Below are positions 39,634-55,248 of a stretch of DNA of 64,000 nt, piece by piece. Both the position numbers and the translations under genes were made by a program. The notes under the pieces are model-generated. The model did not search any database. It saw only the letters and a list, made by a program, of their open reading frames with translations, and was not told where the DNA came from. This stretch comes from Gammaproteobacteria bacterium (GTDB lineage Bacteria > Pseudomonadota > Gammaproteobacteria > Eutrophobiales > Eutrophobiaceae). Positions within the stretch are counted from its first letter, which is position 1; every line of letters begins with the position of its first letter. The DNA lies in assembly GCA_965116495.1 (NCBI GenBank), contig OZ220696.1:2144001-2208000 (forward strand), read 5' to 3'.

Positions 39634-40032
39634 TCATAGACGCCCGGAAATTGTTGTGTTATCGGTTTTGAAACCGGGAGGCTGCTTGATTAGTGACTCG
39701 GCGGGGATGCCGAGTTGCTCGTGCAGGCGCCAAATCATTTTAAGTGTGAGTGAGCGTTTACGATTCAATATCTCATAAACACGATTTCTCCTGCCGATCA
39801 TCGGCTCAAGGTCTTTTGCCGTTAATCCCTTCTGTTCCATTTCAAACCTGATGGCGGCAACTGGGTCGGGTAAGTCAAGCGGATAATGCTTATGTTCATA
39901 CGCTTCGACCAGGGTCGCCAGTACATCCAGTTTTTCACCTTCAGGTGAATCCGGTTGCGCTGACATCAGCGTTTCTATCTGTTTCAGCGCCGCCCGATAG
40001 TCGGCATCTGTTTTGATGGGTTTGACTTCCAT
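39634..40032 (-). CDS. higA: HigA-type HTH antitoxin
   Basis: PIKTDADY..YEHKHYP..PDPVAAIRF..EILNRKRSLT. Confidence 0.85.
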   Translation of the reverse strand: MEVKPIKTDADYRAALKQIETLMSAQPDSPEGEKLDVLATLVEAYEHKHYPLDLPDPVAAIRFEMEQKGLTAKDLEPMIGRRNRVYEILNRKRSLTLKMIWRLHEQLGIPAESLIKQPPGFKTDNTTISGRL

Positions 40033-40050
40033 CAGTTGTTCCTCCAGGGA

Positions 40051-40353
40051 CTAAATGATTTGTGCATCAATCCGGTTATATTGGGCATGTGTCCCGATAA
40101 ACCGTATGTAAACCACTCGGTAAGCATAATTAACCCAGACAACCAGCCGATACTTGTTGCCGGCTATATTAAACACCACTCGTCCATCCTTGAGGATACT
40201 GGCATTGCTGAAATCCTGTTTGACATCAGCCGGCGAAGTCCAATCAGCTCGTAACGCTCGTCGATACCAGGCCCTGACCGGCTCTGCCGCATCTTTGTAT
40301 GCAGGGTTTTGCTCCCAGAGCCGTTCGAGCATAGAGAGCGCTATGATCCTCAT
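40051..40353 (-). CDS. higB: HigB-type mRNA interferase toxin
   Basis: RVVFNIAGNKYRLVV..FIGTHAQY; palindrome gtcctaaattgggac upstream. Confidence 0.88.
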   Translation of the reverse strand: MRIIALSMLERLWEQNPAYKDAAEPVRAWYRRALRADWTSPADVKQDFSNASILKDGRVVFNIAGNKYRLVVWVNYAYRVVYIRFIGTHAQYNRIDAQII

Positions 40354-40413: not shown

Positions 40414-40454
40414 GTTAACGGAAATCCTGTTAACGGAAATCCCTGTTAACCGAA
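40414..40454. repeat. Three direct repeats GTTAACGGAAATCC(C)T
   Basis: gttaacggaaatcct gttaacggaaatccct gttaaccgaa. Confidence 0.6.
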
Positions 40455-40526
40455 CAAGCGGTAAAACGTGTCCTGGCCTGGCAACTTTCTGAAACAATGA
40501 AACAGCAAGGCATCAGAAAAGTGGAA

Positions 40527-40547
40527 ATGGCCGGGGACGCAATAGTA
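40527..40547 (-). repeat. Degenerate tRNA-Phe 3'-end copy (att-like junction 4)
   Basis: atggccggggacgcaatagta versus tRNA end atggccagggacagaatcgaa. Confidence 0.6.
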
Positions 40548-40584
40548 AAAACTCTGATGCCACAGTGCTCCGACCCCGGAACTT

Positions 40585-41763
40585 TTAAGTGATGTGCTCG
40601 CTCATCCATTCCTTCAGCAAAGACACTGCCTGCGCCTGGTGTGCGGGCTGCTCGCGGTAGTAGTGAGTCGCGCCGTCAATCCGTTCAAAGCGCTTGTTTG
40701 GACTCCCCAGGAGTTCAAAAATTTTTCGCGGGTGTGATGCCGGCACTGCATCGTCGGCCCCATTTTCAATGACCAGGGCCGGCACGCTGATCGCAGGTGC
40801 ATTGTCTGCGCTGCGTGCGCGGCTTTTATCAAAAGACCATTGCGACATCCACGACCGCAAGGTGGTAAAGCGGGCAAGACCCACGGGTCCCGAGTTGACT
40901 GCGCGCGGGTCACCGAGGTAGCAGTGATTGGGTTCGCGCTGGTTCGGATCGACTGCAGGGTCAATCCAGCGCGGGTCGCACATCGTCCGGTGAACAATGA
41001 ATGGGCGTTCAATCGCGCCGTCGTCAGCATAGGCAAGACGATCAAGCTGTTGTTTCACGCAGGTCGTGATGCGCCGGTTGCGCGCGATCTGCGCTGATCT
41101 GAATCTGTCGAGAAACTCCGCATTGAAAGGTGGCGTGTGAGTTGTTTCCTGTGCGTAAATATCAAGCTCGGGATCGCGCGTATCCGGGTCGGATTCAATC
41201 ATGACCGAAGGGTCGAGCCACTCGGTCAACGTTTCCGCGCGGCTGAGGTGCGCGGCGATACTGAGTATCCCGTCGGCCGCCGGCAGGCCGGCTGAAGACA
41301 GATCGACAGGGTCACCCGCAGGCGTGGCGGTGACGCTGGGCGTTTCGGCCTGTGCCTGGTAGTAGATAGATAAAGAGCCGCCGCCGCTCCAACCGGCGAG
41401 TATCACGTTCTCGTAGTTCAGTTCGTCGCGTGCGAAGGTGATATGCGCGCCCAGGTCGAGCAACACCTTCTCGATTATTAGCGGCGTGTCGTTACGCAGG
41501 TAGCGGCTGTTGCAACACATGACGTGTACGCCGGCTTCAGCGAGTGCCCTGGGTAAGGGCAGGAGAGACAGCGACGACGACGGATGCATGAACAGCAACA
41601 CCGATTTGGCGGGCGCAGCGCTACGCCGCAACAGTTGACCCTCGAGGAATATGCGGCCGGCTTGACCAACGAAGCCGTAAACTTCCGTGAACAGACTCTG
41701 CTCGTTGTATGAAATCGTATAGCCGTCGCGGGCGAACGGTTCGCGCAGTACTTCTATTTGCAT
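40585..41763 (-). CDS. Alpha/beta hydrolase
   Basis: GWSGGG elbow, ADDAV, GATHYY. Confidence 0.85.
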   Translation of the reverse strand: MQIEVLREPFARDGYTISYNEQSLFTEVYGFVGQAGRIFLEGQLLRRSAAPAKSVLLFMHPSSSLSLLPLPRALAEAGVHVMCCNSRYLRNDTPLIIEKVLLDLGAHITFARDELNYENVILAGWSGGGSLSIYYQAQAETPSVTATPAGDPVDLSSAGLPAADGILSIAAHLSRAETLTEWLDPSVMIESDPDTRDPELDIYAQETTHTPPFNAEFLDRFRSAQIARNRRITTCVKQQLDRLAYADDGAIERPFIVHRTMCDPRWIDPAVDPNQREPNHCYLGDPRAVNSGPVGLARFTTLRSWMSQWSFDKSRARSADNAPAISVPALVIENGADDAVPASHPRKIFELLGSPNKRFERIDGATHYYREQPAHQAQAVSLLKEWMSEHIT

Positions 41764-41773
41764 GGACGCTTCG

Positions 41774-42274
41774 CTAAGCGGATTTAGTGCCGGCTTTGCG
41801 TGCGTTCCACTTGTCCATTTCCACTACCGCGTCCTGTGCCATCTGCGACCACATCGCCTTGGTGTCGGTGCGAACGGAAACTTCGAGGCGATGGCCGTTC
41901 GGATCGTAGAAGTACCAACTGTCGCACATGCCATGTTCCACCGGTCCCAGTACGTCGGTACCCATATCACGCAATCGCTGTGCCAGGGACGCCGCTTCCT
42001 CGTGGGAGTCGATCTCGAGAGCCAGGTGCTGCGCCCAATCCTGTTCAACTCGCGCCGCCGGACCGGCGTCTTCGAGGATGTCAAAGAAGGCGATGAAACT
42101 GCCGTCTTTCATCTCGAAGAAAATGTGGTTGTGCGGCTCGTTGCGTTGCAGTGACGGCACGTGTTCCTGGACCAGCGCGGCGGCGAACTTCAGGCCCAGG
42201 CCATCGACATAAAATTGCCGCGTCGCTTCAGCGTCGAGACAGCGATAGGCAACATGGTGAAGTTTCTTGAGCAT
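41774..42274 (-). CDS. VOC/glyoxalase family protein
   Basis: LHHVAYRC, HLAL, YFYDPNGHRLE. Confidence 0.9.
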   Translation of the reverse strand: MLKKLHHVAYRCLDAEATRQFYVDGLGLKFAAALVQEHVPSLQRNEPHNHIFFEMKDGSFIAFFDILEDAGPAARVEQDWAQHLALEIDSHEEAASLAQRLRDMGTDVLGPVEHGMCDSWYFYDPNGHRLEVSVRTDTKAMWSQMAQDAVVEMDKWNARKAGTKSA

Positions 42275-42367
42275 CCGCTTGCCTCGTCTCCAGGGTAGCT
42301 TGATAATAATGTATAAAGAGATAAATTATACAAAAATATTATCGACGGTGTGAGGATTTGACGGCAC

Positions 42368-43612
42368 ATGACCATGGCACAAACTAAAAGCCCATCAACG
42401 GCGCGCTTTGCGCGCGACCTCGGCGAGGTACGCAAGGAAGTTCTGGCCAGGGTAGAAGCGATACTGCCGGCGCTGGCGGACGCGGCCGCAGACGCGGAAG
42501 CAGAACGTGATCTGACGCCGGAATCCTTCGCTGCCCTGGTCGAATCCGGTGCGCTGCGGCTGTTCGCGCCGCAACGAGCGGGCGGATACGAGGCCGGTTA
42601 CCGGACTTACGTTGACTCGACCGTCCTGTTGGCGCGCGCATGCGGTTCATCGGCGTGGTTTTCCTTCATTCTCAATCATGGGGACTGGCAGACCGGGCAG
42701 ATGAGCGCTGCGGTTCAGGAGCGTGTGTGGGCCGGCAATTCGGCTTCGGCGAAGGTTGCGGTGCCGCTCGCGCCGATGCCTGGCTGGCGCGCCGAGCGAC
42801 ATGACGGCGGCACAACGGTCTCGGGCGACTGGCCGTACTCGTCAGGTAGCTCGCACGTCAGTTGGGCGCTGATCGGTTTTCCGCTGCTGGACGATGACGG
42901 GTCGCAGACAGACAACATGATCGGGCTGGTCAAGACCAGCGGGATCCCGGTCCGCGACACCTGGCATGTTGCCGGTATGGCTGCGACCGGCAGCAACACC
43001 TTTGAAATACAGGATGTTTTTATACCGGACGAGGAAACGACCACCTTGTCCGCAATGATGAGCCACCGGTTTGAAACGCCCCACACCGCTGAAGCGCAAT
43101 ACCAGATGGATTCCGTCGTGGTCTTTCACATCGCGACCCTGGTGCCAGTGGTCAGCCTCGCGAAAGCCGCTCTGGATTTGACCATGGAACGCATCACGAC
43201 GCGTCCTAAACCGATGACTTATACGTTTTATACGGATACCACCAAGTCGGCCGCGACCCAGTTTGCGATGGCGCGCGCAACCTGGTTGATCGAGACGGCA
43301 TTGGAGCAGACGCGCGCCACCGCCGACGCCATCGATGCGCAAGCACTGACGGCGCGTCCGTTCCCGGCGATCGACCGCGCAACGTTTGCCATGCGTTCGG
43401 CACAGGCACATCGCATGTGCCGCGAAGGCGTGGACTTATTACTTGATGTACAGGGCGCAGGCTCTTTCGCTCTTAATAATCCGCTGCAGAGGATCTGGCG
43501 CGACATGCATGTAGCCAGCCGCCACGGTATGTCGGTGCCTGGCATGAAGCAGGAGATGTACGGCCGCGCGTTGCTGGGCGCCGATGAACAGCAGATGACG
43601 CCGATTCGCTAA
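42368..43612 (+). CDS. Acyl-CoA dehydrogenase-like flavin-dependent monooxygenase (HsaA-like)
   Basis: SGDWPYSSG, DTWHVAGMAATGS, NPLQRIWRD. Confidence 0.85.
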   Translation: MTMAQTKSPSTARFARDLGEVRKEVLARVEAILPALADAAADAEAERDLTPESFAALVESGALRLFAPQRAGGYEAGYRTYVDSTVLLARACGSSAWFSFILNHGDWQTGQMSAAVQERVWAGNSASAKVAVPLAPMPGWRAERHDGGTTVSGDWPYSSGSSHVSWALIGFPLLDDDGSQTDNMIGLVKTSGIPVRDTWHVAGMAATGSNTFEIQDVFIPDEETTTLSAMMSHRFETPHTAEAQYQMDSVVVFHIATLVPVVSLAKAALDLTMERITTRPKPMTYTFYTDTTKSAATQFAMARATWLIETALEQTRATADAIDAQALTARPFPAIDRATFAMRSAQAHRMCREGVDLLLDVQGAGSFALNNPLQRIWRDMHVASRHGMSVPGMKQEMYGRALLGADEQQMTPIR

Positions 43613-43972
43613 TCGCGATTTAACGCAGGTATTCACCCAGCTTAAACAGGTCTACGAGTAAAGCAACCTGCCCCGGGACTTGCTGTAACTACACAGATTT
43701 CTCCGTCTCACGCTGGTTGAACAGAAAAAAATTTCGGTCAGGAGACGCACAAACTACCCACTGTCCAGTTATAATGATAACTGCATCAGGTCATCCACTT
43801 GGACGCGACTTTAAGATAGCCCTGGGATACAGCTTGAGCGTGTTTCAATATGTGGTAATACAACTCAGGAATATTATCTTTCCTGCCGGTACTTTAATTG
43901 ATTAAAGGAGGCAATGGCTCGACGCCTATTGTCGGTATTTCAATTATTGTTGTTTTGTCTATAGGGGTTGAT

Positions 43973-44266
43973 ATGAAATATCTCATTCTACTGATGCTTC
44001 TGTATATTCCACTCGTTCATTCGGCTGATTATCGCAAAGAAATTATGGATTATATGATTAATCCTTGCTTCAAACAAACCATGAAAAGAGAAGGACTGGA
44101 TCCAAATAATCCACAATTATTGAATTCATATATTGACACATATGGGAAGCGTATTATGGATAATGTTGAGATATTACAACTAACTTTAGAACAATATCAT
44201 CCGTCTTATCCAGAACGCCAAGAATTATATCAAATTGGATTACGCAGTTGTCTAGATGGGTTTTAA
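43973..44266 (+). CDS. Small secreted hypothetical protein
   Basis: Signal peptide MKYLILLMLLYIPLVHS; two Cys. Confidence 0.55.
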   Translation: MKYLILLMLLYIPLVHSADYRKEIMDYMINPCFKQTMKREGLDPNNPQLLNSYIDTYGKRIMDNVEILQLTLEQYHPSYPERQELYQIGLRSCLDGF

Positions 44267-44389
44267 TGGAAGTATGGCCGAAAGAAAACCCGGCTAAACT
44301 ACACCTGACTGATATGGCCCACTACCTTGGCTAGAGGTTTGAATCTGACGAGAAGGATGTTCGCGTGATTGACAACAAAAGAACCACAA

Positions 44390-44956
44390 ATGAATAGAAA
44401 TATCATAGGAATAATTATAGCGCTGGTTGCTATATACATCTTTGCTACACCTTATATCACTGTGTACCGGATGGATATCGCCAACCAGAATCATGATGGA
44501 GATGCGCTATCCAAGTATATTGATTTCCCAGCATTGCGGCAAAGCATGAAAGACCAGATAAACGCGCAGCTACCAATCCTAATGACAAAAGAGGGGTTGG
44601 ACGATAATCCATTCACTCCTTTAGGAATCCTGTTGGCGAGCACGTTGATAGAAAAAATAATTGACACACGCATTACTTCGTCCGGAATTGTGGAGTCAAT
44701 GAAAAATATCCCTGACACATATGATGGTATTCTAAATGTTGACATTGACCTTTCAGATGCGTCTGCAGATGTTTTAAAGTCGTACGAATCTTTCAGCAAA
44801 TTTTCTGTAACCAGAACCGTTAAGGATACTGAATTGAACGATGATATAGTAATAAAATATTATTTAAGCCGTAGAGGATTAAACTGGAAATTAACTGAGA
44901 TTATACTCCCCCTGGCAGAATGGCAATCAGCGCTTGAACCAGTTCTCAGATTTTAA
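44390..44956 (+). CDS. DUF2939-like membrane-anchored protein
   Basis: TPYIT..DALSKYIDFPALRQSMKDQ..RRGLNWKLTEI. Confidence 0.7.
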   Translation: MNRNIIGIIIALVAIYIFATPYITVYRMDIANQNHDGDALSKYIDFPALRQSMKDQINAQLPILMTKEGLDDNPFTPLGILLASTLIEKIIDTRITSSGIVESMKNIPDTYDGILNVDIDLSDASADVLKSYESFSKFSVTRTVKDTELNDDIVIKYYLSRRGLNWKLTEIILPLAEWQSALEPVLRF

Positions 44957-45035
44957 AGCAGAAAAAAAGAAAAGAAGATATTGAACATTTAAATGTTGTT
45001 TCTGGTCTCTATAATAAGAAAAAAGGGTAACCATC

Positions 45036-45278
45036 ATGAATCGAATATTTCTGATTATTGGGCTTTTATTGACTCCACCACATATATTGGCCGATCCGGA
45101 TGACAAGGCCGATATTCCTGTTGACCTGATTGTCAAAGACCGTTCACAATTGACAATAACCAAAATGCGGGGTGGCTCTGATACCAGAAAAACCTACAGA
45201 GCTTGTGACCGGGATAAATGTTCGTATTTCACTGTACGGACGTACAGTGACGGAACCCAAGCCGTATATCCTCATTAA
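45036..45278 (+). CDS. Small secreted hypothetical protein
   Basis: Signal-peptide-like N-terminus, CDRDKC. Confidence 0.45.
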   Translation: MNRIFLIIGLLLTPPHILADPDDKADIPVDLIVKDRSQLTITKMRGGSDTRKTYRACDRDKCSYFTVRTYSDGTQAVYPH

Positions 45279-45349
45279 TTTTACATTTATTTCTAAACCG
45301 CACTCCAATCCATTCATTGGCGCCGATTACACACACATCAGGAAATAGC

Positions 45350-45751
45350 ATGTTTAATCGTATTAAGTACGAAGATTTAAATTCTCGACAGAAGAAGAAA
45401 GACTACAATTTTCAAAAACTCGCATCCAGACTCGTCGATTACGGTTTCAACTGTTTACGACTCAGCGAGCAGGGAGCAGACTTTATCGCTCATCATATAG
45501 ATGGTAGTACTTTTATCAGAGGCACACTAACAGGGCGGTTAAGTATTGATAAGAAATACAACGGGAAAGATATCTATATTGCCTTTAATGAGAACAGCCG
45601 ATGGTATATTTATCCCCATGATAAATTACAGGATGAACTGCTTGATATGGGCTACATGTCCGGGACTGTATCGTGGGATATCCGTGGTATATACAACTGG
45701 CCAGGGCTTACTAAAAGACTGGTAGAACACATGGAGCAGTATGCAATTTAG
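45350..45751 (+). CDS. PD-(D/E)XK-fold hypothetical protein, possibly inactivated
   Basis: LNSRQ..YNFQK..DYGFNCLRL..GADFIA pattern. Confidence 0.5.
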   Translation: MFNRIKYEDLNSRQKKKDYNFQKLASRLVDYGFNCLRLSEQGADFIAHHIDGSTFIRGTLTGRLSIDKKYNGKDIYIAFNENSRWYIYPHDKLQDELLDMGYMSGTVSWDIRGIYNWPGLTKRLVEHMEQYAI

Positions 45752-45775
45752 AAGGTATCCGGGTTGGCGTTGAAA

Positions 45776-45800
45776 ATACGGCCAGGGACGTAATAGTACT
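45776..45800 (-). repeat. tRNA-Phe 3'-end copy (att-like junction 3)
   Basis: atacggccagggacgtaatagtact. Confidence 0.7.
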
Positions 45801-46055
45801 GCTTTTATAACTTAGGAAGCTCTGTTTTTGTCAGAGGTTCCCTTGTTGACTTATCGAATTCCTTATTATCGTTAACCTGCTTACCCAACAATTTAACCAA
45901 GAAAATATCCAGATGTATTGCTGGTCTCATGCCGCACTTGTACGGCGGGTTGCTCGCCAGAGTTATTGTTTGGGCAGAGTCTCACTATTACTTGATTTTT
46001 ACGGTCATATCAGCTATTTTTACATTATACTGCGTCATAAATATTGAGGTTCTAT

Positions 46056-46406
46056 ATGAAATTTCAGGAATTCGTTGAAGATCAGGTTTTCTCACCCACG
46101 CTCGTCGCCACCGCGTTGCGTACAACCAGGAGTGAGATTGCCCATACACTGGGGCTGGGTCAGGACGCGTTCTCGCGCAGTTCCCGCATCCGGGCGAGGA
46201 AGACACAGACACGGTTGCGTCAGATGCTCGAAATTCTCCATCGGGTATCGACCCATACAGGTTCCGACCTGGCGGCCTATGCCTGGTTTCGCGCAGAGCC
46301 ATTATCCGGCTTTGGTGGTATGACCCCCGACCAACTGGTGCGGGAAGGCAAGGCTGATGATGTCCACGCTCATCTCGACCGAATCATGGCCGGCGGTTAC
46401 GCTTGA
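46056..46406 (+). CDS. Xre/MbcA/ParS-type antitoxin
   Basis: AYAWFRAEPLSGFGGMTPDQLV; upstream of RES gene. Confidence 0.85.
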   Translation: MKFQEFVEDQVFSPTLVATALRTTRSEIAHTLGLGQDAFSRSSRIRARKTQTRLRQMLEILHRVSTHTGSDLAAYAWFRAEPLSGFGGMTPDQLVREGKADDVHAHLDRIMAGGYA

Positions 46407-46421
46407 TACGTCGTCCTGCTG

Positions 46422-46934
46422 ATGCGTTTTTGCGGCCTCGTCTATCGCGCGCATAACCCGCGGTGGACCTGGGACGCGACTTCCGGAGAAGGGGCGCGCC
46501 GCCATGGGGGGCGCTTTAACCGAATAGGGGTCCCGGCACTTTATACGTCCCTGTCACCTGTCACAGCCATGAGAGAGGCCAGCCAGATAGGGCGGCCATT
46601 GCAGCCGATCACGCTGTGCGCCTACGAGGTCGATGCAGAGCCTGTATTCGATGTGTTGGACCCGTCAGAGCGGGAGGCACTGGGAGTAAAGACAGATGAC
46701 TTTTGTTGCCAATACTGGGAACGGGAAATGCTGGCGGGTATCTTACCGGCGTCGCAGCTTCTCGCCGACCGGCTGATTGCAGCCGGCTATATGGGTATGC
46801 GTGTTCAAAGTTTCGTACCGGGAGCCGGAACGGATGATCTCAACCTGGTATTCTGGCGCTGGGGCGACCACGGACCAGGCAAAGTGGTCCTCATAGATGA
46901 CGAGGAGCGTCTCCCAAAAAATACAGATGGGTGA
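46422..46934 (+). CDS. RES-domain toxin
   Basis: VYRAH, GGRFN, ALYTS, AMRE, VQSF. Confidence 0.88.
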   Translation: MRFCGLVYRAHNPRWTWDATSGEGARRHGGRFNRIGVPALYTSLSPVTAMREASQIGRPLQPITLCAYEVDAEPVFDVLDPSEREALGVKTDDFCCQYWEREMLAGILPASQLLADRLIAAGYMGMRVQSFVPGAGTDDLNLVFWRWGDHGPGKVVLIDDEERLPKNTDG

Positions 46935-46949
46935 CTCGGAGTTTCGCAC

Positions 46950-47172
46950 TGCTTCCCGTTCATCCCGTCTCAACCTTCAATATCGGGTAATTTACGGAAT
47001 CGAAGGCGAGAACCTTATGGTCCAGGTGGTGGAAGTGACTGCCCATGATTACAGGAAAAAGGGCGCTCCGCTGCCATCCCGCAGCGCTGGTATTTCCTAA
47101 TTGGGATATAGAATCGGAAATTGCCGCATAGCCGCTTTATCCTAATTCGCGGTACAGCATCGGGTCAAACAG
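46950..47172 (+). pseudogene. Decayed, internally deleted duplicate of the RelE-like/XRE pair at 53391-53935
   Basis: Near-identical to 53560-53668 joined directly to 53864-53977. Confidence 0.85.
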
Positions 47173-47218
47173 CGCTGCCTGACGGAACCTCCTGATAATG
47201 GCGCAGTACAGGGCCAGA

Positions 47219-47244
47219 AAGTATGGCCAGGGGCAGAATAGTAC
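47219..47244 (-). repeat. tRNA-Phe 3'-end copy (att-like junction 2)
   Basis: aagtatggccaggggcagaatagtac. Confidence 0.7.
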
Positions 47245-47259
47245 CGAGCATAAATAGGG

Positions 47260-48489
47260 TTATACCAGGTAGCGCAGAAACTCCTCCGCACTGATTATCA
47301 GCACTTTATAGTTTCCCAACTTAACGATATCAAATACATTCGGTTTTTTCACAACCTGAAACGCGTACGGGCATTTGAGTTGCGGCAAAAACACTTTCCA
47401 GTTTTGCGATAATTTTTCCTGGTTCAGTTTTACTTCCACCGGAAACCAGGGCTTGTTGTTCCTTAACAGGAGAAAATCGATTTCCTTCTTTTCCTTGTTC
47501 CTGAGATAGCGCAGTTCATAGCTGCCAACACCTGTATCAGTCAGGTAATCACAATATTTCAACAGGTGCAATGCAACCAGGTTTTCAAAGCGGGATGCCT
47601 CATTTTCCACCTCGCTCCAATCCCAGAGGTACAGTTTTCCCTCTTTTTTTATGGAGCGGGACAGGGATTTTGAATAGGGCTTGACCTCAAAGAAATAATA
47701 CAATTCGTTCAGATACTGCAACCAGCGCCTGACCGTGGTATAGGCTACCTCAAGGTCTTCACTCAATGAGGTTATGCTCAACGGGTTAGCTGCTCGCTCC
47801 GGCAACAGACTAGCCAGCATTTCCACCTGGCTTAACTCCGGCAGCCGGCTCAGGTCGCGCAAGTCCTCCCTGATTATTCTCTCAACCCGGTTACGCCGCC
47901 ACAGGTTCAGGGTTCTATCCGTTCCGGCCAACAAAGGCTCTGGAAACGGTCCAAACCGAAGCAACAAAGGCAGGTAATCCTTGGCTCTCCCGCTGATTTT
48001 AATGGAACGTTCGAACACTGCATGCACCAGGTCAGGAGCGGCAATCCCGGGCTTCCTGCGAAGCATTTCATGCATTGAGAATGGATGCAGGCGCAGGTGA
48101 TAATATCTCCCCAGCAAGCTGTCACTACCCTTCCGGTAGATATTCAGGCGCGCGCTGCCGGTCACCAGTATATCGCAGGGCATGTCCAGGGTATCGTAAA
48201 CGCCTTTGAGGTTTTTCTTCCAGAATTTTGCCTTGTGCAGTTCATCGAGAACGATTAACGGTCTGGCATCATCCTGCACGGCAGGCGGGATTATGCCGCT
48301 CGGATCTTTGGTCCAAAGACGGCGGAACTTAATCTCGTCCCAGTTGTAATAAGCGCCGGTTTTGTACTGTTTTAAAATGCGCTTGGCCAATGTGGTCTTG
48401 CCACATTGCCTGGCGCCGGACATGAAGGCCATTTTCCCGGTTTGAAAACAGACCTCATTGAGTATATTTTCCAGGTAACGCTCTTTCAT
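47260..48489 (-). CDS. AAA_14/DUF4143 ATPase with C-terminal nuclease-like motif
   Basis: GARQCGKT, LDELHK, VTGSA, KLYLWD, EIDF..VEVK. Confidence 0.85.
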   Translation of the reverse strand: MKERYLENILNEVCFQTGKMAFMSGARQCGKTTLAKRILKQYKTGAYYNWDEIKFRRLWTKDPSGIIPPAVQDDARPLIVLDELHKAKFWKKNLKGVYDTLDMPCDILVTGSARLNIYRKGSDSLLGRYYHLRLHPFSMHEMLRRKPGIAAPDLVHAVFERSIKISGRAKDYLPLLLRFGPFPEPLLAGTDRTLNLWRRNRVERIIREDLRDLSRLPELSQVEMLASLLPERAANPLSITSLSEDLEVAYTTVRRWLQYLNELYYFFEVKPYSKSLSRSIKKEGKLYLWDWSEVENEASRFENLVALHLLKYCDYLTDTGVGSYELRYLRNKEKKEIDFLLLRNNKPWFPVEVKLNQEKLSQNWKVFLPQLKCPYAFQVVKKPNVFDIVKLGNYKVLIISAEEFLRYLV

Positions 48490-48493
48490 TATA

Positions 48494-48575
48494 TGACTAT
48501 TTTAGCGACTGACGCCAAAATGGTCAACTCCTGCCGGGGCATCTGGCCATTTTATTGATTGCCGAGAAAATAGTC
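48494..48575. promoter_or_regulatory. Two GAC(C/T)ATTTT-N13-AAAAT(G/A)GTC-type inverted repeats over the ATPase promoter
   Basis: 48494-48526 and 48545-48575; minus-strand TTGACC-17-TAAAAT. Confidence 0.55.
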
Positions 48576-48579
48576 GTCT

Positions 48580-48790
48580 GTATTCCTTTGTCACCGATGC
48601 CTTGGAAACCGGGGATGCTGTGTACATAGCCAAGGCGATGGGGGTGGCAACTCGCGCCAAGGGCATGACGGAAATTGCCCGGGAGATAGGACTGTCACGC
48701 GAACAGCTTTACCGCTCTTTCAGTGAGAAAGGGAATCCAAGACTGAAAACCATGCTTGCCCTTAACATATCCTTCAAACTGGTGATGCCA
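48580..48790 (+). pseudogene. Truncated addiction-module antidote (HI1420-like)
   Basis: ALETGD..RAKGMTEIAREIGLSREQLYRSFSEKGNP; no N-terminus or partner toxin. Confidence 0.65.
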
Positions 48791-48852
48791 CGACTTCTGA
48801 CGAATCTTTACAAATCCATTAGCTTGAAGAATTTTCAAAAAGTCACGGTATT

Positions 48853-49182
48853 TCAAGCCTCACAATGAATCAGGAATCCGGCACAATCCCTGTCATTTCC
48901 CCTGTTTTTGAAGAGCGTTGTTATCAGCAATATCAGAATAAACTTCATGCGAAGATTGAAAGGGACTTTGCGCGTTAAAAACCGGCGCTGTTCCTCTTTC
49001 GGTAAATTCCTGACATAATCCAGATACATTGAGATAGCTTCATTCAGTTCCTTGTAAACTTCATCAAAGCTCCCTCCCTGAACTGCCAAATCAAAATCCA
49101 GACAGAACGCTTCCCAATGTCCCAGTCTGCCTTCTGCATAACACCAGATGGCTTTGTTCATGTTAATCCCGGATTCTGTCAT
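48853..49182 (-). CDS. HicB-like orphan antitoxin-fold protein
   Basis: WEAFCLDFDLAVQGGSFDEV..LNEAISMY; GGAGG RBS. Confidence 0.6.
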   Translation of the reverse strand: MTESGINMNKAIWCYAEGRLGHWEAFCLDFDLAVQGGSFDEVYKELNEAISMYLDYVRNLPKEEQRRFLTRKVPFNLRMKFILILLITTLFKNRGNDRDCAGFLIHCEA

Positions 49183-49448
49183 TTCATCACCTCCCCGTTC
49201 ACCAGGCCAGCTAGCCACACATCTTGTGCGTTATATTATCAGCGTAATGGCTAAATGGGCATATGTGATGAATAATTTATTGACAAACCCCATTACAATC
49301 TGGCGTGAGCGGCGCCATACTCCCGGACTTATCCATTTTATTGACAAACCCTCTTACGACTTGGTGTGAGGGGAGGCTGTTTCAGGGCTTAGGACACGCT
49401 TTTGACGACGAAAATCATCGATCCGTATATTGCGCCTTCTTCATGCAG

Positions 49449-49745
49449 TTAATTTGCAGCCTGTACGTGTAATTTTACTCCCAGGGCCTTGATGATCTTT
49501 ATCACTGTCGTAAAGGACGGATTGCCCTCCGATGACAACGCCTTGTACAACCCCTGCCGTGTCATCCCGGCGCTTTCTGCCAACCTGCCCATGCCTTTTG
49601 CGCGGGCAATATTATTCAACGCGGTACGGATCAGGGCGCCATCACCGCTGTCTTCTTCCATACACGCGTCAAGATACAAGGCCATATCTTCTTCGGTATC
49701 AAGATAATCGATCACATCCCATCGGGTCAGTTTTACCTCAGCCAT
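49449..49745 (-). CDS. Addiction module antidote protein (HI1420 family)
   Basis: WDVIDYLDTEED..ARAKGM..GLYKALSSEGNPSF. Confidence 0.88.
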   Translation of the reverse strand: MAEVKLTRWDVIDYLDTEEDMALYLDACMEEDSGDGALIRTALNNIARAKGMGRLAESAGMTRQGLYKALSSEGNPSFTTVIKIIKALGVKLHVQAAN

Positions 49746-50035
49746 GTTTGTACCTCCTCGGCTGTTTCAAGCGCGTGTTCAATGTCTTTGTTTTGTGTTT
49801 TTTTTGTGCCGCCACCCAACAGGACGATAATTTCAGTCCCTGATCGGATAAAATATATACGGTATCCGGGACCATAGTGGATGCGCATTTCAGCAACACC
49901 TTTACCTACCGCTCGGCAATCACCCAGGTTACCTTGTTGGACATTTTCCAGACGCGCCGCGATTTTCGCTTTTGCTCGCCTGTCCCGCAATCCTCTGAGC
50001 CATTTGCCAAAGACTTCCGTTGTCTGAATCAACAT
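49733..50035 (-). CDS. Addiction module killer protein (HI1419/RelE family)
   Basis: WLRGLRD..GNLGD..EMRIHYGPGYRIYF..LLGGG; palindrome gtaaactatagttgac upstream. Confidence 0.88.
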   Translation of the reverse strand: MLIQTTEVFGKWLRGLRDRRAKAKIAARLENVQQGNLGDCRAVGKGVAEMRIHYGPGYRIYFIRSGTEIIVLLGGGTKKTQNKDIEHALETAEEVQTWLR

Positions 50036-50218
50036 GGCGCTATAGTAAACTATAGTTGACACTAACGCCAATGCTTTTCTGGGGGCAGTGTGGGGTCAGA
50101 CCAGACCTGATTAGATAGTAATGTCGTCGTACAAGCATGAGAATCTTAAAACCCCGATTTTGATTGCAAAATGGGGAGTCTAAGGGGCAATATCAGGCGT
50201 GGGCGGTCATGGGGAAGT

Positions 50219-51097
50219 TTAGGAGTAAAATTCAGCGGGGTTTAACAACCTGCCCCAGCAGGGACATGGCGGATTCAGATGCCGACCAGTGTTTACCATA
50301 ATTTTGCCAATAGTCATACGCCTGGTCGGGGCCTCCAAGACTTGCTGTGACAGTCTGTGACCCCATAACCGGCGCAGCCGATCTTCTTTTACAACGACGT
50401 TCTGCATTACGTCTTCTATTGTGCGATGCCGGAATGCCAGCTTGGATTCCAGTTCCGGCATTATGTCTGCAAGTTCAGAGTCATGGTGATTCAGCAAATA
50501 CCACAGATCGTACAGGTCTCTGGGTTCATTGCGGGCACGGTCACTCAGCGCCACAATTTTCTCGACCATTATTTCATTGAGGCTATAGGTCAAAATGGTA
50601 GCCCCCTCCGGCAGATCATTGAACATATCGTATTGACGGAGAATTGGTCTTTCCTGTAATGGGAAACAGATTTTTTCGGTTAATGTGAAATCGACTTTCA
50701 CACTGTTCTTTGCGGGCAAGGGGCCTTGGTACTGCAGATAAAAGGTATAGTTGTTCCTGCCTGGTCGGCTGTCTTTTTGATCAAATTCAATATGCACGCC
50801 ACTGGCTGCTCTTACAGCATTATGAATATCCCCGAACCCTGTCATGATATCTTCAATGCCGAGGGGTTCAATCAGGGTAAAATCCATGTCCTCTGAAAAC
50901 CGGTAACCATCAAACCAGCAACGCCTTAACGCCGTCCCGCCCTTGAATGCCAGTTTTTCACGCAATGGGTGATTGCTCAAGCCGGACAGAAACCATGCCA
51001 GCACATAGTCTCGTTCAATGACGGCCTCAGGCAATCGCCTTTTGTTGTCTGTTACCAACGAATTTGTGATGAGCGAAATATTTCGTTGCGGAATCAT
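50219..51097 (-). CDS. AbiEii-family nucleotidyltransferase toxin (type IV TA)
   Basis: IERDY, FKGGTAL, RFSEDMDF, EKIVAL..RDLYD; TGATG coupling with abiEi. Confidence 0.88.
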   Translation of the reverse strand: MIPQRNISLITNSLVTDNKRRLPEAVIERDYVLAWFLSGLSNHPLREKLAFKGGTALRRCWFDGYRFSEDMDFTLIEPLGIEDIMTGFGDIHNAVRAASGVHIEFDQKDSRPGRNNYTFYLQYQGPLPAKNSVKVDFTLTEKICFPLQERPILRQYDMFNDLPEGATILTYSLNEIMVEKIVALSDRARNEPRDLYDLWYLLNHHDSELADIMPELESKLAFRHRTIEDVMQNVVVKEDRLRRLWGHRLSQQVLEAPTRRMTIGKIMVNTGRHLNPPCPCWGRLLNPAEFYS

Positions 51098-51933
51098 CAG
51101 CCAAACCTCACGGCATCTATCTCTTCGGGCGGCACGTTCAGTTGCAGGCGCCAACGAGCCAGGTGTTTTCCTTCGGCCGGCAGCAACGGGTCAAGGCGCT
51201 GGTACGTGTTCGTCAACAGGCTGCGCAGGTACTCAAGCGTACTGGCATTCGCCATCTCATAACGCTCAAGCAGGTAGCCGAGTCGACGAACGACGACGCC
51301 CGCGCCCAGACGGGAGGCATACTCCACCAGACGCTCCACATTCAATGCTTCACGCTGCATCCACATGCCTTTGCCGACTTCCGTGATGCCGCCCACATGG
51401 GCCGGGTGCCGTAAACCGTCAATAATGGTCCGCTCCATATCACTGACAATCACATGGCGATGCTTGTCCACCCAGTGCTTCGTTGTACCGAAAAACTGCT
51501 CGTCGGTGATATGAATGAATTTGAACGGGAACCCGCCAACAGTCTGGGGGCGCAGCCGTTTCGTACATGACACATGCAAGGTCAGGACCGGTTGCGTCAC
51601 CATGCGATGGATCTCAAGCGCGGAGCCGTGTGAGATGAAGTAACTGTTTGGCTGCACTATTTCCTGTGCGATGATATAGGGGTTGTCAACATGCTCACTG
51701 GCCCGACCCAGTTGAAACGGGACCAGATTGTACAGCCCGGGTTTCAGACGCGTCACCAGGCCGCGCTGGACCGCCTTGTGCACCAGGTTGCTGGCCGCCT
51801 GTGGAGACAAACCGGTGATGGATATCACATCATCAAGCGCAAACGTTGATCTGTCCCGCTCATTCAACTCAGTGATCATCTGAGCAGCCCGAGGTCCAAG
51901 TGTCTTGAATTTTGAATTATATCGAGAGTTCAT
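51097..51933 (-). CDS. AbiEi-family antitoxin/regulator
   Basis: wHTH N-terminus RLKPGLY, YFISHGSAL, SDMERTIID, RRLGYL. Confidence 0.85.
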   Translation of the reverse strand: MNSRYNSKFKTLGPRAAQMITELNERDRSTFALDDVISITGLSPQAASNLVHKAVQRGLVTRLKPGLYNLVPFQLGRASEHVDNPYIIAQEIVQPNSYFISHGSALEIHRMVTQPVLTLHVSCTKRLRPQTVGGFPFKFIHITDEQFFGTTKHWVDKHRHVIVSDMERTIIDGLRHPAHVGGITEVGKGMWMQREALNVERLVEYASRLGAGVVVRRLGYLLERYEMANASTLEYLRSLLTNTYQRLDPLLPAEGKHLARWRLQLNVPPEEIDAVRFG

Positions 51934-52345
51934 ATTCTATCCCAAAGAAGATATATTATGCGTATATAATATAATAATAATTATATAAATTGTCAATAAT
52001 ATTACCTTTTAGATAATATATGCACCATATATTATAACTTATACCTGTCGTGTGCGTGTGCCAGGCGGTTGAAGCGCTGACACGGTATTGAAAAAAGCAG
52101 GCCCGGCCAATTTTTCGAGGACTTCCTGAAAGAACAAAGATTAATGCCGTTTACTATTTCATTGTCCCAACATCTGTCCCAACATTTTTTCCGATATGAA
52201 ACTGCATCTCTGCGGAGGCGATATGTAATCTTCGTGAGGATTTGTAACTCATTGTATTAATGGTAATTATCGAATTTTTCGATGTTTCCTGATACTACTC
52301 AGACCCTGGCTTGATCCCAATCAGGAATCATCTATAATGACTCCT

Positions 52346-52672
52346 GTGCGGGTAATCGCAAAAAGGTCATTAAGGAAGGTCTGGGAGTCGGTGCCTGAAT
52401 ATGCTGATGCGAAGGAGCCATTGGAGGCCTGGTATTTTGAAGTAATCAGGGCCTCATGGACTACTCCCCAGGAGTTGAAAGCACAGTTTGGATCGGCCAG
52501 TATCCTCAAAAACAGCCGGGTTGTTTTCAATATAGCGGGGAATAAGTACCGGCTCGTTGTTGCCGTCGATTACCGGAGACAGGCCTGTTTTGTGAAGTTT
52601 GTCGGCATTCACAAGCAATATGACACTATTGATGCGGAGACGTATGATGGATATTCAGCCCATAAAAAATGA
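52346..52672 (+). CDS. higB: HigB-type toxin
   Basis: RVVFNIAGNKYRL; GTG start 7 nt after TATAAT. Confidence 0.85.
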   Translation: MRVIAKRSLRKVWESVPEYADAKEPLEAWYFEVIRASWTTPQELKAQFGSASILKNSRVVFNIAGNKYRLVVAVDYRRQACFVKFVGIHKQYDTIDAETYDGYSAHKK

Positions 52673-53003
52673 ACGGGATTACGACCAGGCCCTTGCAGCA
52701 GTCGAAAGGCTGTGGGGAGCCGAAGAAGGGACGGAAGCGGGTGACAAACTGGATATCCTGTTAATCCTCGTTGAAGATTACGAAGACAAGCACCACCGGA
52801 TTTCACCACCGGACCCCGTGGATGCCATCAAATTCAGGATGGAACAAATGAACCTGACGAGAAAGGACCTGGAGCCCTGTATCGGCAACCGGGGCAGGGT
52901 TTCGGACATCCTGAACCGGCGCCGTGAACTCTCGTTGGCCATGATAAGAAACCTTCATTCCAGGCTGTCCATTCCGTTGGAGAGTCTTATCGGCGAGGCC
53001 TGA
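52644..53003 (+). CDS. higA: HigA-type antitoxin
   Basis: PIKNERDY..PDPVDAIKFRMEQ..DILNRRRELS. Confidence 0.85.
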   Translation: MMDIQPIKNERDYDQALAAVERLWGAEEGTEAGDKLDILLILVEDYEDKHHRISPPDPVDAIKFRMEQMNLTRKDLEPCIGNRGRVSDILNRRRELSLAMIRNLHSRLSIPLESLIGEA

Positions 53004-53067
53004 AAGAAGGACCCGTACACCCGCCCTTCGACATTTCACCCGGCCCGCAGCTTGTCCCATCCATAAG

Positions 53068-53112
53068 GTTGTGCTGATTGACGATGAGGATCGTCTATCA
53101 AAGAATACACAG
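53068..53112 (+). pseudogene. C-terminal remnant of RES toxin gene
   Basis: VVLIDDEDRLSKNT versus VVLIDDEERLPKNT at the end of 46422-46934. Confidence 0.65.
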
Positions 53113-53124
53113 CAGTATACACGG

Positions 53125-53169
53125 CCGGTTCGATTCAGGCGAAAGTATGGCCAGGGACGTAATAGTACT
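53125..53169 (-). repeat. tRNA-Phe 3'-end copy with flank (att-like junction 1)
   Basis: ccggttcgattcaggcgaaagtatggccagggac versus ccggttctattcagacgataagtatggccagggac at 55028. Confidence 0.8.
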
Positions 53170-53390
53170 AAACTGATAAGATACTGTTATAAAAGCTTTT
53201 TTATTGGTTTAATAAATTCCATTGTAACATTTATTACAACATTTTGTCTTGTAAGGATTTGATGCCCTGCAGGTGGATCAGGGTACGGGTAGGAGGTCAT
53301 CCTCCACACGAAGCATTTTGATCTGCAATTTTATCGATGTGCCACCAAAATGTTTGACATATCTTATATGGTATATATACTCTTTTTAGT

Positions 53391-53672
53391 ATGTGGGCCG
53401 TTTATGAACATCGCCGGGTTGACAAACAGCTCACTAAGGCTCCGATTGAAGTACAGAAACGTTATGAGAAATGGAAGGATATTGTCAGTATTTCGGGTCC
53501 TGCCGGATTGAAGCTGATACGCGGTTTTCATGATGAGGCGCTTCGTGGTGAGTGGCAAGGCTTCCGTTCATCCCGCCTCAACCTACAATATCGGGTAATT
53601 TACGGAATCGAAGGTGAGAACCTTATGGTCCAGGTGGTGGAAGTGACTGCCCATGATTACAGGAAAAAATGA
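53391..53672 (+). CDS. RelE/YafQ-like mRNA interferase toxin
   Basis: GFHDEALRGEWQGFRSSRLNLQYRVIY; TTGACA-16-TATACT promoter. Confidence 0.85.
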   Translation: MWAVYEHRRVDKQLTKAPIEVQKRYEKWKDIVSISGPAGLKLIRGFHDEALRGEWQGFRSSRLNLQYRVIYGIEGENLMVQVVEVTAHDYRKK

Positions 53673-53935
53673 TTATGAAAGAATTTCGAGAAGCAAAATC
53701 CCGTATTCAAATTTCAACCGGGGAATCCGTCAGAATTATCAGGGAATTGCAGGAACTCAGCCAGAATGAACTTGCCGCTGTCACGGGTATCCCTCAATCG
53801 ACCATCTCCGCAATTGAGCGAGACAGGATCAACCTGGGAGTTGAACGGGCCAAGGTCCTTGCCAGGGCGCTCAGGTGCCATCCCGCAGCGCTGGTATTTC
53901 CTAATTGGGATATAGAATCGGAAATTGCCGCATAG
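53669..53935 (+). CDS. XRE-family HTH antitoxin
   Basis: LSQNELAAVTGIPQSTISAIE. Confidence 0.85.
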   Translation: MIMKEFREAKSRIQISTGESVRIIRELQELSQNELAAVTGIPQSTISAIERDRINLGVERAKVLARALRCHPAALVFPNWDIESEIAA

Positions 53936-54081
53936 TCGCTTTATCCTAATTCTCGATACAGCATCGGGTCAAACAGCATAGTCTTCCGATCAGGATTTGC
54001 GCAATTCGCCATAATTTTACCTCTAACCAGTATTCCGTTGTTTCTACCAGGAATGTTGCGCGGGATTTAAGGTCAAGCGCT

Positions 54082-54352
54082 TCAGAACGCCACCCTGTCC
54101 CCTCCCTTGAGCAGCAGAATCTCCCGCGCTTCATCTGGCGTCGCCACCTGCAGCCCCAGCCCTTCAATGATCTTGCGCACACGGGATACCTGATCGGCGT
54201 TGGATGTGGCCAGTTCACCCTTGCCCAGCCACAGCGAATCCTCAAGGCCGACCCGTACATGCCCACCCATGGAGGCGGCCATCGCGGCAACCCGCATCTG
54301 GTTGGCACCCGCGGCGAGCACCGACCAGCGGTAGTTATCGCCGAATAGGCGA
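54082..54352 (-). pseudogene. C-terminal remnant of 3-keto-5-aminohexanoate cleavage enzyme (DUF849/BKACE)
   Basis: GGHVRVGLEDSLW..SNADQV..ATPDEAREIL; N-terminal two thirds absent. Confidence 0.75.
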
Positions 54353-54427
54353 ATTCTCCAGCTGGCCCGACGCACACATTAAATAATATTCATTGCATAG
54401 TGTAATCATATTGATTACAATTCATGA

Positions 54428-54715
54428 ATGATAAGGAAGTTTCACCATAAGGGACTCAAGCGGTTTTTTGCCGACCCGCGGTACAGTGACAAGCGTGGAA
54501 TCAACCCGGACACGGCGTCACGCCTCATCGTCATTCTTGATGCGCTTGACGTTATTGAGAAAGCGGAAGAGATGGATATCTCAGGCCTGTATTTTCACAA
54601 ACTGAAAGGTGTGAGAAAAGGTGTATACAGCGTTCGCGTTACGGGCAACTGGCGAATCACCTGGAAGATGGCTGGTGAAGATGTTACCGATGTAAACCTG
54701 GAGGATTATCACTGA
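54428..54715 (+). CDS. HigB-like (plasmid maintenance killer) toxin
   Basis: HKGLKRFF..HKLKG..YSVRVTGNWRITW; palindrome gtaatcatattgattac upstream. Confidence 0.87.
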   Translation: MIRKFHHKGLKRFFADPRYSDKRGINPDTASRLIVILDALDVIEKAEEMDISGLYFHKLKGVRKGVYSVRVTGNWRITWKMAGEDVTDVNLEDYH

Positions 54716-55005
54716 TGAACCGTAAACCCTCACACCCGGGCGCGTTGATTAGAAACGTCATCCTGCCTGAGACCGGATTATCCGTCAGTTCACTCGCCGA
54801 GCGCTGTGGTGTTGCGCGCAATACCATGTCGAAGCTCATAAACGAGCGTGGTGACGTCACCGAGGACCTGGCCATTCGTCTGAGTTGTGTGCTGGGCAGC
54901 ACACCCGGGTTCTGGCTGGCCATGCAGTCGAAACTGAACTTATGGAAACTGGAGCGCAAGAACAGGCAAATCTACAGCCGTATGGAGCGCGTTCAGACAG
55001 GCTGA
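54715..55005 (+). CDS. HigA/VapI-type antidote
   Basis: HPGALI..LAIRL..TPGFWLAMQ. Confidence 0.87.
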   Translation: MNRKPSHPGALIRNVILPETGLSVSSLAERCGVARNTMSKLINERGDVTEDLAIRLSCVLGSTPGFWLAMQSKLNLWKLERKNRQIYSRMERVQTG

Positions 55006-55051
55006 ATAGCATAATCGCGCACAATGTCCGGTTCTATTCAGACGATAAGTA

Positions 55052-55124
55052 TGGCCAGGGACAGAATCGAACTGCCGACACAGGGATTTTCAGTCCCCTG
55101 CTCTACCTACTGAGCTACCTGGCC
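55052..55124 (-). tRNA. tRNA-Phe (GAA), CCA not encoded; probable island anchor
   Basis: GGCCAGGTAGCTCAGTAGGTAGAGC..CTGAAAA..GTTCGATTCTGTCCCTGGCCA. Confidence 0.96.
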
Positions 55125-55248
55125 AAATCGATGCGGGCGCCACTGAAGAGGTGACGTCGAAGAAAGGGAGGTATTAAATCTTACTCCGGGTTTTCCGTCA
55201 AGCGGGAGATTTATTATGCGCAGTTTCCGCTTACAGAGTGTTTACAGG

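What the first reader, a model, noticed from the sequence alone, without database searches (positions are those of the whole stretch)
40527..55124. Tandem array of integrase-less islets delimited by tRNA-Phe 3'-end copies with conserved non-tRNA flanks
Seen: the tRNA-Phe 3' end (TGGCCAGGGAC on +) recurs at 53143, 47219, 45776 and 40527, with a weak AAGTATGGCC at ~44270. On the high-coordinate side the copies converge on AATAGTA(C), whereas the tRNA has AATCGAAC. On the low side three share AAGTA/AAATA, and 53125 shares ~25 bp with the flank of the real tRNA. Established: tandem integration at a tRNA attB leaves attP-like internal junctions with this hybrid form. Inference: at least four small units (about 1.9, 5.9, 1.4 and 5.2 kb) were stacked at one site. 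They carry mostly TA/defence genes and no integrase, which would make this a tRNA-anchored, integron-like cassette accumulator served in trans, or the eroded remains of serial islands.
Basis: partly seen in the sequence, partly recalled or inferred. Interest (0 to 1): 0.8.

Follow-up and report, generated by a model that had tools for sequence, protein, structure and literature searches.

The report
Hitch-hiking gene cassettes stacked at tRNA-Phe
Behind this bacterium's phenylalanine tRNA gene lies a row of small, integrase-less packets of mostly toxin-antitoxin genes, parted by copies of the tRNA's end that keep at most the far half of an integrase docking site; they are likely stripped-down mobile islands that would move only by riding along with an intact island visiting the same site.

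Summary
The array is real. Three junctions (53148, 47224, 45779) are the best non-tRNA matches in the 4.3-Mb genome, 40528 is degenerate, and 44270 is unsupported. No integrase lies in the array. The junctions are not attP-like but one-armed (attR-like). A paired integrase arm repeat sits upstream at 17 of 26 junctions across the genus (82-83 bp away when intact) and downstream at 0 of 26. The same repeat precedes the integrase in intact P4-family islands. Eight of 20 relatives carry such junctions at tRNA-Phe. Only one has an integrase there: a tRNA-proximal P4-family island with a relaxase, its cassettes behind it. One 1.06-kb HigBA unit has different neighbours in different species, switching at the cores, and is 96% identical between hosts with 81-87% identical core genes. 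At a tRNA-Leu-type site a unit keeps just 24 bases of an island's left arm. Best reading: decayed islands accreted at one site and likely moved in cis (CIME-like), not an integron served in trans. The window's array is partly eroded. No excision was seen in public contigs. The scan noted similar stacks in many other genomes. Variant of a known kind.

The parts
55051..55125 (-). tRNA-Phe(GAA), the target gene; ends without an encoded CCA here (CCA follows the core in 8 of 20 relatives)
55052..55062 (-). 11-bp att core within the tRNA 3' end
55028..55051 (-). short conserved left end of unit 1 (family shared with 53124-53147 and with units of G001, G014, G016, G020, G022); no arm repeat follows
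54428..55005 (+). unit 1: HigB-like toxin (PF05015) and HigA antitoxin (TIGR02607)
54082..54375 (-). unit 1: 3' fragment of a BKACE (PF05853) gene that is whole in G022
53391..53935 (+). unit 1: RelE/StbE toxin (TIGR02385) and HTH_3 antitoxin; unit 1 reads as a hybrid of two units that are separate in G022
53148..53243 (-). intact junction: paired arm repeat (53221-53243), IHF-like site, T-loop-like GTACTATT, core 53148-53158; arm 83 bp from core
52337..53003 (+). HigB toxin (PF09907) and partner; the 1.06-kb cassette also found in G016, G022, G001
52164..52186 (-). orphan paired arm repeat, the true distal end of the HigBA cassette; its core is displaced to 47224
47249..52135 (.). 4.9 kb inserted into that arm: HTH fragment, AbiEi/AbiEii (51097-51933, 50219-51154), RelE/ParE plus HI1420 pair (49449-50071), second HI1420 piece, AAA_14/DUF4143 ATPase (47260-48489); insertion inferred
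47224..47248 (-). junction core with its T-loop-like flank but no adjacent arm
46044..47173 (+). unit 3: Xre/RES TA pair (46044-46934) and an internally deleted 96% copy of the unit-1 RelE pair (46951-47173)
45779..45904 (-). junction with paired arm repeat displaced by about 30 extra bases (113 bp instead of 83)
40539..45778 (.). doubtful unit 4: four low-GC ORFs (one DUF2939/PDC-S55), flavin monooxygenase, glyoxalase-family protein, alpha/beta hydrolase; no distal arm
40448..40548 (-). degenerate junction (core 40528-40538) fused to the middle of an HTH antitoxin gene (40448-40532), likely a secondary crossover site
39634..40353 (-). further HigB/HTH pair just beyond the last junction

Best explanation
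The array is a stack of integrase-less units at the tRNA-Phe 3' end whose intact junctions carry the integrase arm on one side only; the units are likely decayed P4-family integrative mobilisable elements (IMEs) that would move in cis with an intact IME visiting the same site. Step 1 (inferred from G022's anatomy): an IME with a P4-type tyrosine integrase and a relaxase inserts at the core. Step 2 (inferred; directly visible at a tRNA-Leu-type junction): a deletion removes the left arm, integrase and backbone. It spares the core, a few bases beyond it, an addictive TA pair and the whole right end (attR). Step 3 (inferred): the next IME inserts at the restored tRNA and pushes older units outward. 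Its attL can pair with any downstream attR, so IME plus one or more units would leave as a circle with a complete attP and transfer. Later excision of the IME alone would leave the units behind. Step 4 (shown as anatomy, cause inferred): between visits the units erode and recombine by hybrid formation, insertion into an arm and use of a secondary site. This genome has no Phe-targeting integrase next to the site, so its array is likely dormant now.
For: One-sided arms: 17 of 26 junctions score above the 99th background percentile upstream, 18 of 26 have their best site at 82-83 bp, and 0 of 26 have one downstream. The same repeat lies 122-125 bp behind the tRNA, just before int, at 9 of 16 tRNA-adjacent P4-type integrase loci. 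The right end of an intact-looking tRNA-Leu island of G014 has the cassette-type arm and TTCTATT core flank. The only integrase found at the locus in 20 relatives is tRNA-proximal in G022: PF13356+PF22022+PF00589, followed by a PF03432 relaxase, with 0.9-2.2-kb TA units behind it. At a tRNA-Leu(GAG)-type junction in G018, a TA unit's left end equals the first 24 bases of an IME left end of the same genome, then diverges. Blocks cross junctions between species: 1849 bp at 95.9% with G022 spanning 53148, against 82-87% in core genes. In the window the most decayed junction is the farthest from the tRNA, as reported for CIMEs (PMC7563491).
Against: No excision or transfer was observed; contigs of the source-like runs cross all junctions intact. 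An IME at tRNA-Phe is seen once only (1 of 20). Its left end continues CCA-TACTG whereas most units begin TACTT, so the units' exact parent is not in hand. The ~25-bp left end shared by units with unrelated cargo, and the fixed 82-83-bp spacing in integrase-less units, look more conserved than plain decay needs. G001 holds a 99.2% duplicate starting exactly at a core, which single-unit re-entry would explain equally well.
Confidence: 0.65

Rival explanations
1. The units are dedicated minimal cassettes excised and re-inserted singly by a P4-type integrase acting in trans on one-armed sites, an integron-like platform built on a tRNA end.
For: There are runs of near-uniform 1.06-1.10-kb one-operon units in G022. 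The HigBA unit has different neighbours on both sides in G016 and G022, switching within 11 bp of the cores. G001 has a core-anchored duplicate. The left end is conserved across cargo.
Against: There is no left arm at any of 26 junctions, while P4-family excision as studied uses attL and attR with arm sites on attL (PMC2951348 passages). Neighbours also travel as blocks. The genome's two long P4-type integrases are 61% and 50% identical to the Phe-site one, and the better one sits at tRNA-Lys. Many units are long or broken.
Confidence: 0.18
2. The junctions are inert scars. The region is a tolerant landing zone, and TA modules arrive by homologous recombination or other elements using the shared flanks.
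For: Three of four window junctions are damaged. The same HigBA operon occurs without the ends at other loci of G014, G018, G001 and G003. Modules inside units are mosaic and not bounded by cores.
Against: Arms and the IHF-like site stand out as conserved columns at fixed spacing among 11 otherwise divergent right ends. Unit switches fall at the cores. Cross-species blocks include junctions while the flanking chromosome stays about 81-87% identical.
Confidence: 0.15

Closest known systems
CIMEs (cis-mobilizable elements) and site-specific accretion in streptococci (PMC7563491: passages and Discussion part 1; PMC5704250: passages)
   Same: Integrase-less, cargo-bearing units of about 1-13 kb with att sites, in tandem behind an intact ICE/IME; the most decayed lie farthest from the target gene.
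   Different: Gammaproteobacterial host and P4-family integrase. Up to six internal junctions, against two or three elements in the S. salivarius composites. Cargo dominated by TA pairs. The tRNA-side att is cut back to the core plus a short conserved stub.
P4-family tyrosine-integrase islands at tRNA 3' ends, e.g. KplE1/IntS (PMC2951348 passages)
   Same: Arm sites on attL overlapping the region before int, use of IHF, tRNA 3' target. The G022 element has this layout.
   Different: The window's units have no int and no attL arm.
Tycheposon islands of Prochlorococcus (bioRxiv 10.1101/2020.12.28.424599, passages)
   Same: Serial integration at a tRNA pushes older elements outward and leaves partial tRNA copies.
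   Different: Tycheposons encode integrases, often with replication modules; these units do not.
Integrons (recalled, not tested against a model)
   Same: Row of small TA-rich units parted by recombination sites; order differs between genomes.
   Different: No intI next to the array and no attC-type hairpin was recognised; the sites are tRNA-end cores with arm and IHF-like sites.

Membership tests
CIME / accretion array | No integrase, relaxase or conjugation gene in the unit | tested here: met
   all such hits lie outside the array
CIME / accretion array | Retains att sites at both ends | tested here: inconclusive
   Core at both ends of every unit; a full arm only at the distal end, and intact at one of four window junctions
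CIME / accretion array | Derived by deletion from an ICE/IME | tested here: inconclusive
   Right ends match IME right ends; 24-base IME left-end stub seen at a tRNA-Leu-type unit; exact parent of the Phe units not found
CIME / accretion array | Found in tandem with, and distal to, an intact element at the same site | tested here: met
   G022 only, 1 of 20 relatives; not in the window's genome
CIME / accretion array | Co-excision and transfer with the helper | not testable with these tools
   No circle in the contigs laid; contigs drop rare forms
Integron | Integron integrase with attI beside the array | tested here: not met
   No PF00589 hit in the window
Integron | attC sites (single-strand hairpins, GTTRRRY ends; consensus recalled) | tested here: inconclusive
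   Judged by eye only; the junctions are tRNA cores with arms, and no attC model was run
Autonomous P4-family IME | int behind an attL with arm sites | tested here: not met
   0 of 26 junctions and 1 of 21 tRNA-Phe sites (G022) have a downstream arm
   a true two-armed junction with a truncated int exists elsewhere in the genome (C1:1221294-1221076)

The most novel reading that the evidence does not exclude
One-armed attR plus a 25-base stub is a complete, selected cassette format. A passing P4-family integrase cuts single ~1-kb toxin-antitoxin cassettes out and re-inserts them at the tRNA end, giving this genus a double-stranded, tRNA-anchored analogue of an integron at several tRNAs (Phe, Leu, Arg) that trades TA modules between species.
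Probability: 0.18. Interest if true: 0.75.

Novelty: new variant of a known kind. Interest (0 to 1): 0.4.

Why it matters
It gives a base-level, testable account of how integrase-less cargo keeps moving. If only attR is needed, any visiting P4-family IME can pick up whole stacks of TA and defence genes and drop them in another species. Surveys that require an integrase would miss these units. The G022 integrase and its five downstream junctions are a ready test set for whether one-armed sites recombine with each other. Accretion and cis-mobilisation themselves are published, so the surprise is moderate.

Tried and rejected
The 11-mer alone as evidence: too common genome-wide. 44270 as a junction: -28 bits; it is only a 10-base match (my arithmetic gives about a 1-2% chance in 15 kb), so it may be a scrap. 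Two low-scoring sites (G002 C47:21297, G020 C1:313214) were left out of the 26-junction count as doubtful. Junctions outside the genus: a 101-genome family sample gave only scattered single one-mismatch hits there. In genome contigs, 13 of 18 stretches were this genus; of the other 5, one was a tRNA, one a tRNA-Phe with a copy 230 bp downstream (L124), two lacked a tRNA, and one was not examined. The 3 viral hits are one unrelated sequence. Of 11 metagenome hits, 4 were examined and 1 (L136) is the G016 array. Rfam found only tRNAs. A serine resolvase helper was not found. Excision in reads: none among the joints shown (10 and 14 further joints were not shown); the one raw-read run, X21, did not cover the array. 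Runs with small word shares were not used for habitat. L098 (G008) was fetched but not analysed. Literature: eight searches listed no description of this array or of P4-family TA-cassette stacks at tRNA-Phe; most subscription papers, including the primary CIME papers, are not in the library. No complex or structure prediction was run, as none was needed.
Full report
OBSERVATION. tRNA-Phe(GAA) lies at 55051-55125 on the minus strand, behind mutY and yggX. Its last 11 bases recur at 53148, 47224, 45779 and 40528, 1904, 5924, 1445 and 5251 bp apart. The 11-mer is common in the 4.34-Mb genome. A 33-bp matrix trained only on 12 junctions of relatives ranks 53148 (55 bits), 45779 (41), the tRNA (39) and 47224 (30) first, and the best chance site scores 14. 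40528 scores 11, and the 44270 candidate -28. The genome's 9 PF00589, 3 PF13356 and 1 PF03432 hits lie outside the window, and PF00239 has none. Contigs of runs X17, X19 and X20 (two samples) cross all four junctions without a difference. Relatives' record titles read 'MAG: Gammaproteobacteria bacterium'. A 4-kb contig of a relative's array lies in run X2, labelled sponge metagenome.

CARGO. From the tRNA outward: a HigB-like/HigA pair, a BKACE fragment and a RelE/HTH pair. Then a HigB pair, AbiEi/AbiEii, RelE-ParE/HI1420 and an AAA_14-DUF4143 ATPase. Then a deleted copy of the RelE pair and Xre/RES. Last come four low-GC ORFs, a flavin monooxygenase, a glyoxalase-family protein and a hydrolase.

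RELATIVES. I fetched the tRNA-Phe downstream region of 20 relatives (19 same genus, 1 same family). It was covered through to cysQ in 15; G002, G016 and G021 end at contig ends. Eight of 20 (G001, G002, G003, G014, G015, G016, G019, G022) have clear internal junctions, up to six in G022, and G018 has a degenerate one. G007 has one on a separate contig. CCA follows the core at the tRNA in 8 of 20, and ends the array in G002, G003, G015 and G022. tblastn with seven integrases found one integrase at the locus, in G022. It is a 399-aa P4-type protein (PF13356, PF22022, PF00589) directly behind the tRNA, followed by a PF03432 relaxase and restriction-modification-like cargo. Behind it come units of 1059, 1098, 1057 and 2249 bp with BrnTA, RelE/HTH, HigBA and HigBA-BKACE.

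JUNCTION ANATOMY. Read in tRNA sense, an intact junction is: a paired 12-bp-period repeat TGT(T/G)GG, an AT-rich stretch with ATCA-N4-GTTA (IHF-like; consensus recalled), a T-loop-like GT(A/T)CTATT, the core, and TACTT. The repeat also lies 122-125 bp behind the tRNA, just before int, at 9 of 16 tRNA-adjacent P4-type integrase loci, so it is likely the integrase arm site. I retrained the matrix on 13 of those left ends (L067, L071 and L080 dropped; sites were picked in a fixed window with the first matrix, so independence is partial). With it, 17 of 26 junctions exceed the 99th background percentile upstream, 18 of 26 have their best site at 82-83 bp, and 0 of 26 exceed it downstream. The right end of G014's tRNA-Leu integrase island has the same build. 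The junctions are therefore attR-like. A two-armed junction with a truncated int does exist elsewhere in this genome, at a tRNA-Thr-type core.

STATE OF THE WINDOW'S ARRAY. Only 53148 is intact, and 45779 has about 30 extra bases between arm and core. An orphan arm lies at 52164-52186. In run X5 a contig joins a core through 29 other letters to 52136. By arithmetic this restores the 83-bp spacing, and its first 9 letters equal 47240-47248, so 47249-52135 was likely inserted into that arm (one contig, depth 2.6). The low side of 40528 is the middle of an HTH antitoxin gene that is whole in G014, G015 and L136, likely a secondary crossover; unit 4 is doubtful as a unit. Unit 1 starts like G022's fourth unit and ends like its second, through a 227-bp shared stretch.

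MOBILITY. Window 52158-54004, which spans a junction, is 95.9% identical to G022, 52179-53169 is 95.8% identical to G016, and 49337-50114 is 98.2% identical to L136 (the G016 array). Core genes of those hosts are 81-87% identical; the closer G001 shares the cassette at 88%. This points to recent transfer between species (inference). G016 and G022 are close (97% in the flank), so their shared unit may be inherited, but both its neighbours differ and similarity stops within 11 bp of the cores. G001 has a 1155-bp, 99.2% duplicate starting at a core. Against strict modularity: modules inside units are mosaic, and the HigBA operon also occurs without ends elsewhere. No core-to-core joint appeared in eight runs laid (contigs hide rare forms, some joints were not shown, and X21 did not cover the array).

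ORIGIN. The format recurs at other targets. This genome has a 1.4-kb integrase-less two-gene unit at tRNA-Arg(CCT). G018 and G020 have three and two junctions of tRNA-Leu(GAG) type, 1.1-2.0 kb apart. In G018 one unit's left end equals the first 24 bases of an integrase island's left end and then runs into a TA-like pair. That is the footprint expected of deleting arm, int and backbone.

MECHANISM. Shown: the anatomy, the asymmetry, a helper-like IME in one relative, and sharing across species. Inferred: decay from IMEs, retention by TA addiction, co-excision from a visitor's attL to any downstream attR, transfer, and drop-off. This needs only the canonical attL x attR reaction and explains why the distal arm alone is kept (0.65). 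Rivals are single-cassette shuffling in trans (0.18) and inert scars (0.15). The conserved left stub, which contains an inverted T-loop-like sequence, is unexplained.

KNOWN SYSTEMS. It works like CIME accretion, defined as decayed elements that keep att sites and move when an ICE or IME integrates beside them (PMC7563491, passages and Discussion part 1; PMC5704250, passages). Membership is partly met; co-transfer is untested. KplE1 gives the P4-family att layout (PMC2951348, passages). Tycheposon islands show serial push-out at tRNAs (bioRxiv 2020.12.28.424599, passages). It fails the integron test. Eight literature searches listed no account of this array. The scan's own unchecked notes list 84 findings in at least 81 genomes under similar words, several filed near CIMEs; these are leads, not support.

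VERDICT. Real, partly eroded, a new variant of a known kind. Interest 0.4.

Noticed in passing
G000 C1:3732673-3734072: 1.4-kb integrase-less unit at tRNA-Arg(CCT) with a nucleotidyltransferase-like pair, ending in the same arm, IHF-like site and core; a similar first gene sits in G019's tRNA-Phe unit.
   Followed up: partly
G000 C1:1217030-1221294: Two tRNA-Thr(CGT)-type junctions 83-87 kb from the tRNA; one has arms on both sides and a 72-aa integrase stump, an eroded island with TA cargo.
   Followed up: partly
L143:8007-11057 (G018), L144:8679-10009 (G020): Small tRNA-Leu(GAG)-type junction arrays with TA-like cargo, 97-99% identical between the two species; in G018 about 740 kb from the tRNA and inverted.
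   Followed up: partly
window 50090-50210: ~150-bp repeat ending GGTCCGACCC, degenerate here, also near TA genes in G001, G015, G018, G019 and G022; MITE-like, no Rfam match.
   Followed up: partly
window 40448-40532 and 52082-52136: Two adjacent pieces of one HTH antitoxin gene lie 11.7 kb apart in permuted order; other organisms' contigs join them through 18 letters.
   Followed up: partly
window 55028-55051 and 53124-53147: The units' left stub holds an inverted copy of the tRNA T-loop sequence that could pair with the tRNA transcript; function unexplained.
   Followed up: no
G000 C1:4032834 and 2478464: Two arm-plus-core sites sharing a non-tRNA core, also seen in G022; target unidentified.
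   Followed up: no
G000 C1:1008451-1011900: Three adjacent tyrosine-recombinase domains beside tRNA-Leu(TAA); resembles three-integrase islands (recalled).
   Followed up: no
G022: 28 matches to the P4-type integrase in one 4.5-Mb genome, many not next to tRNAs in the loci checked.
   Followed up: no
window 49276-49373: Two 37-bp direct repeats 61 bp apart (81% alike) upstream of the 121-aa ORF.
   Followed up: no
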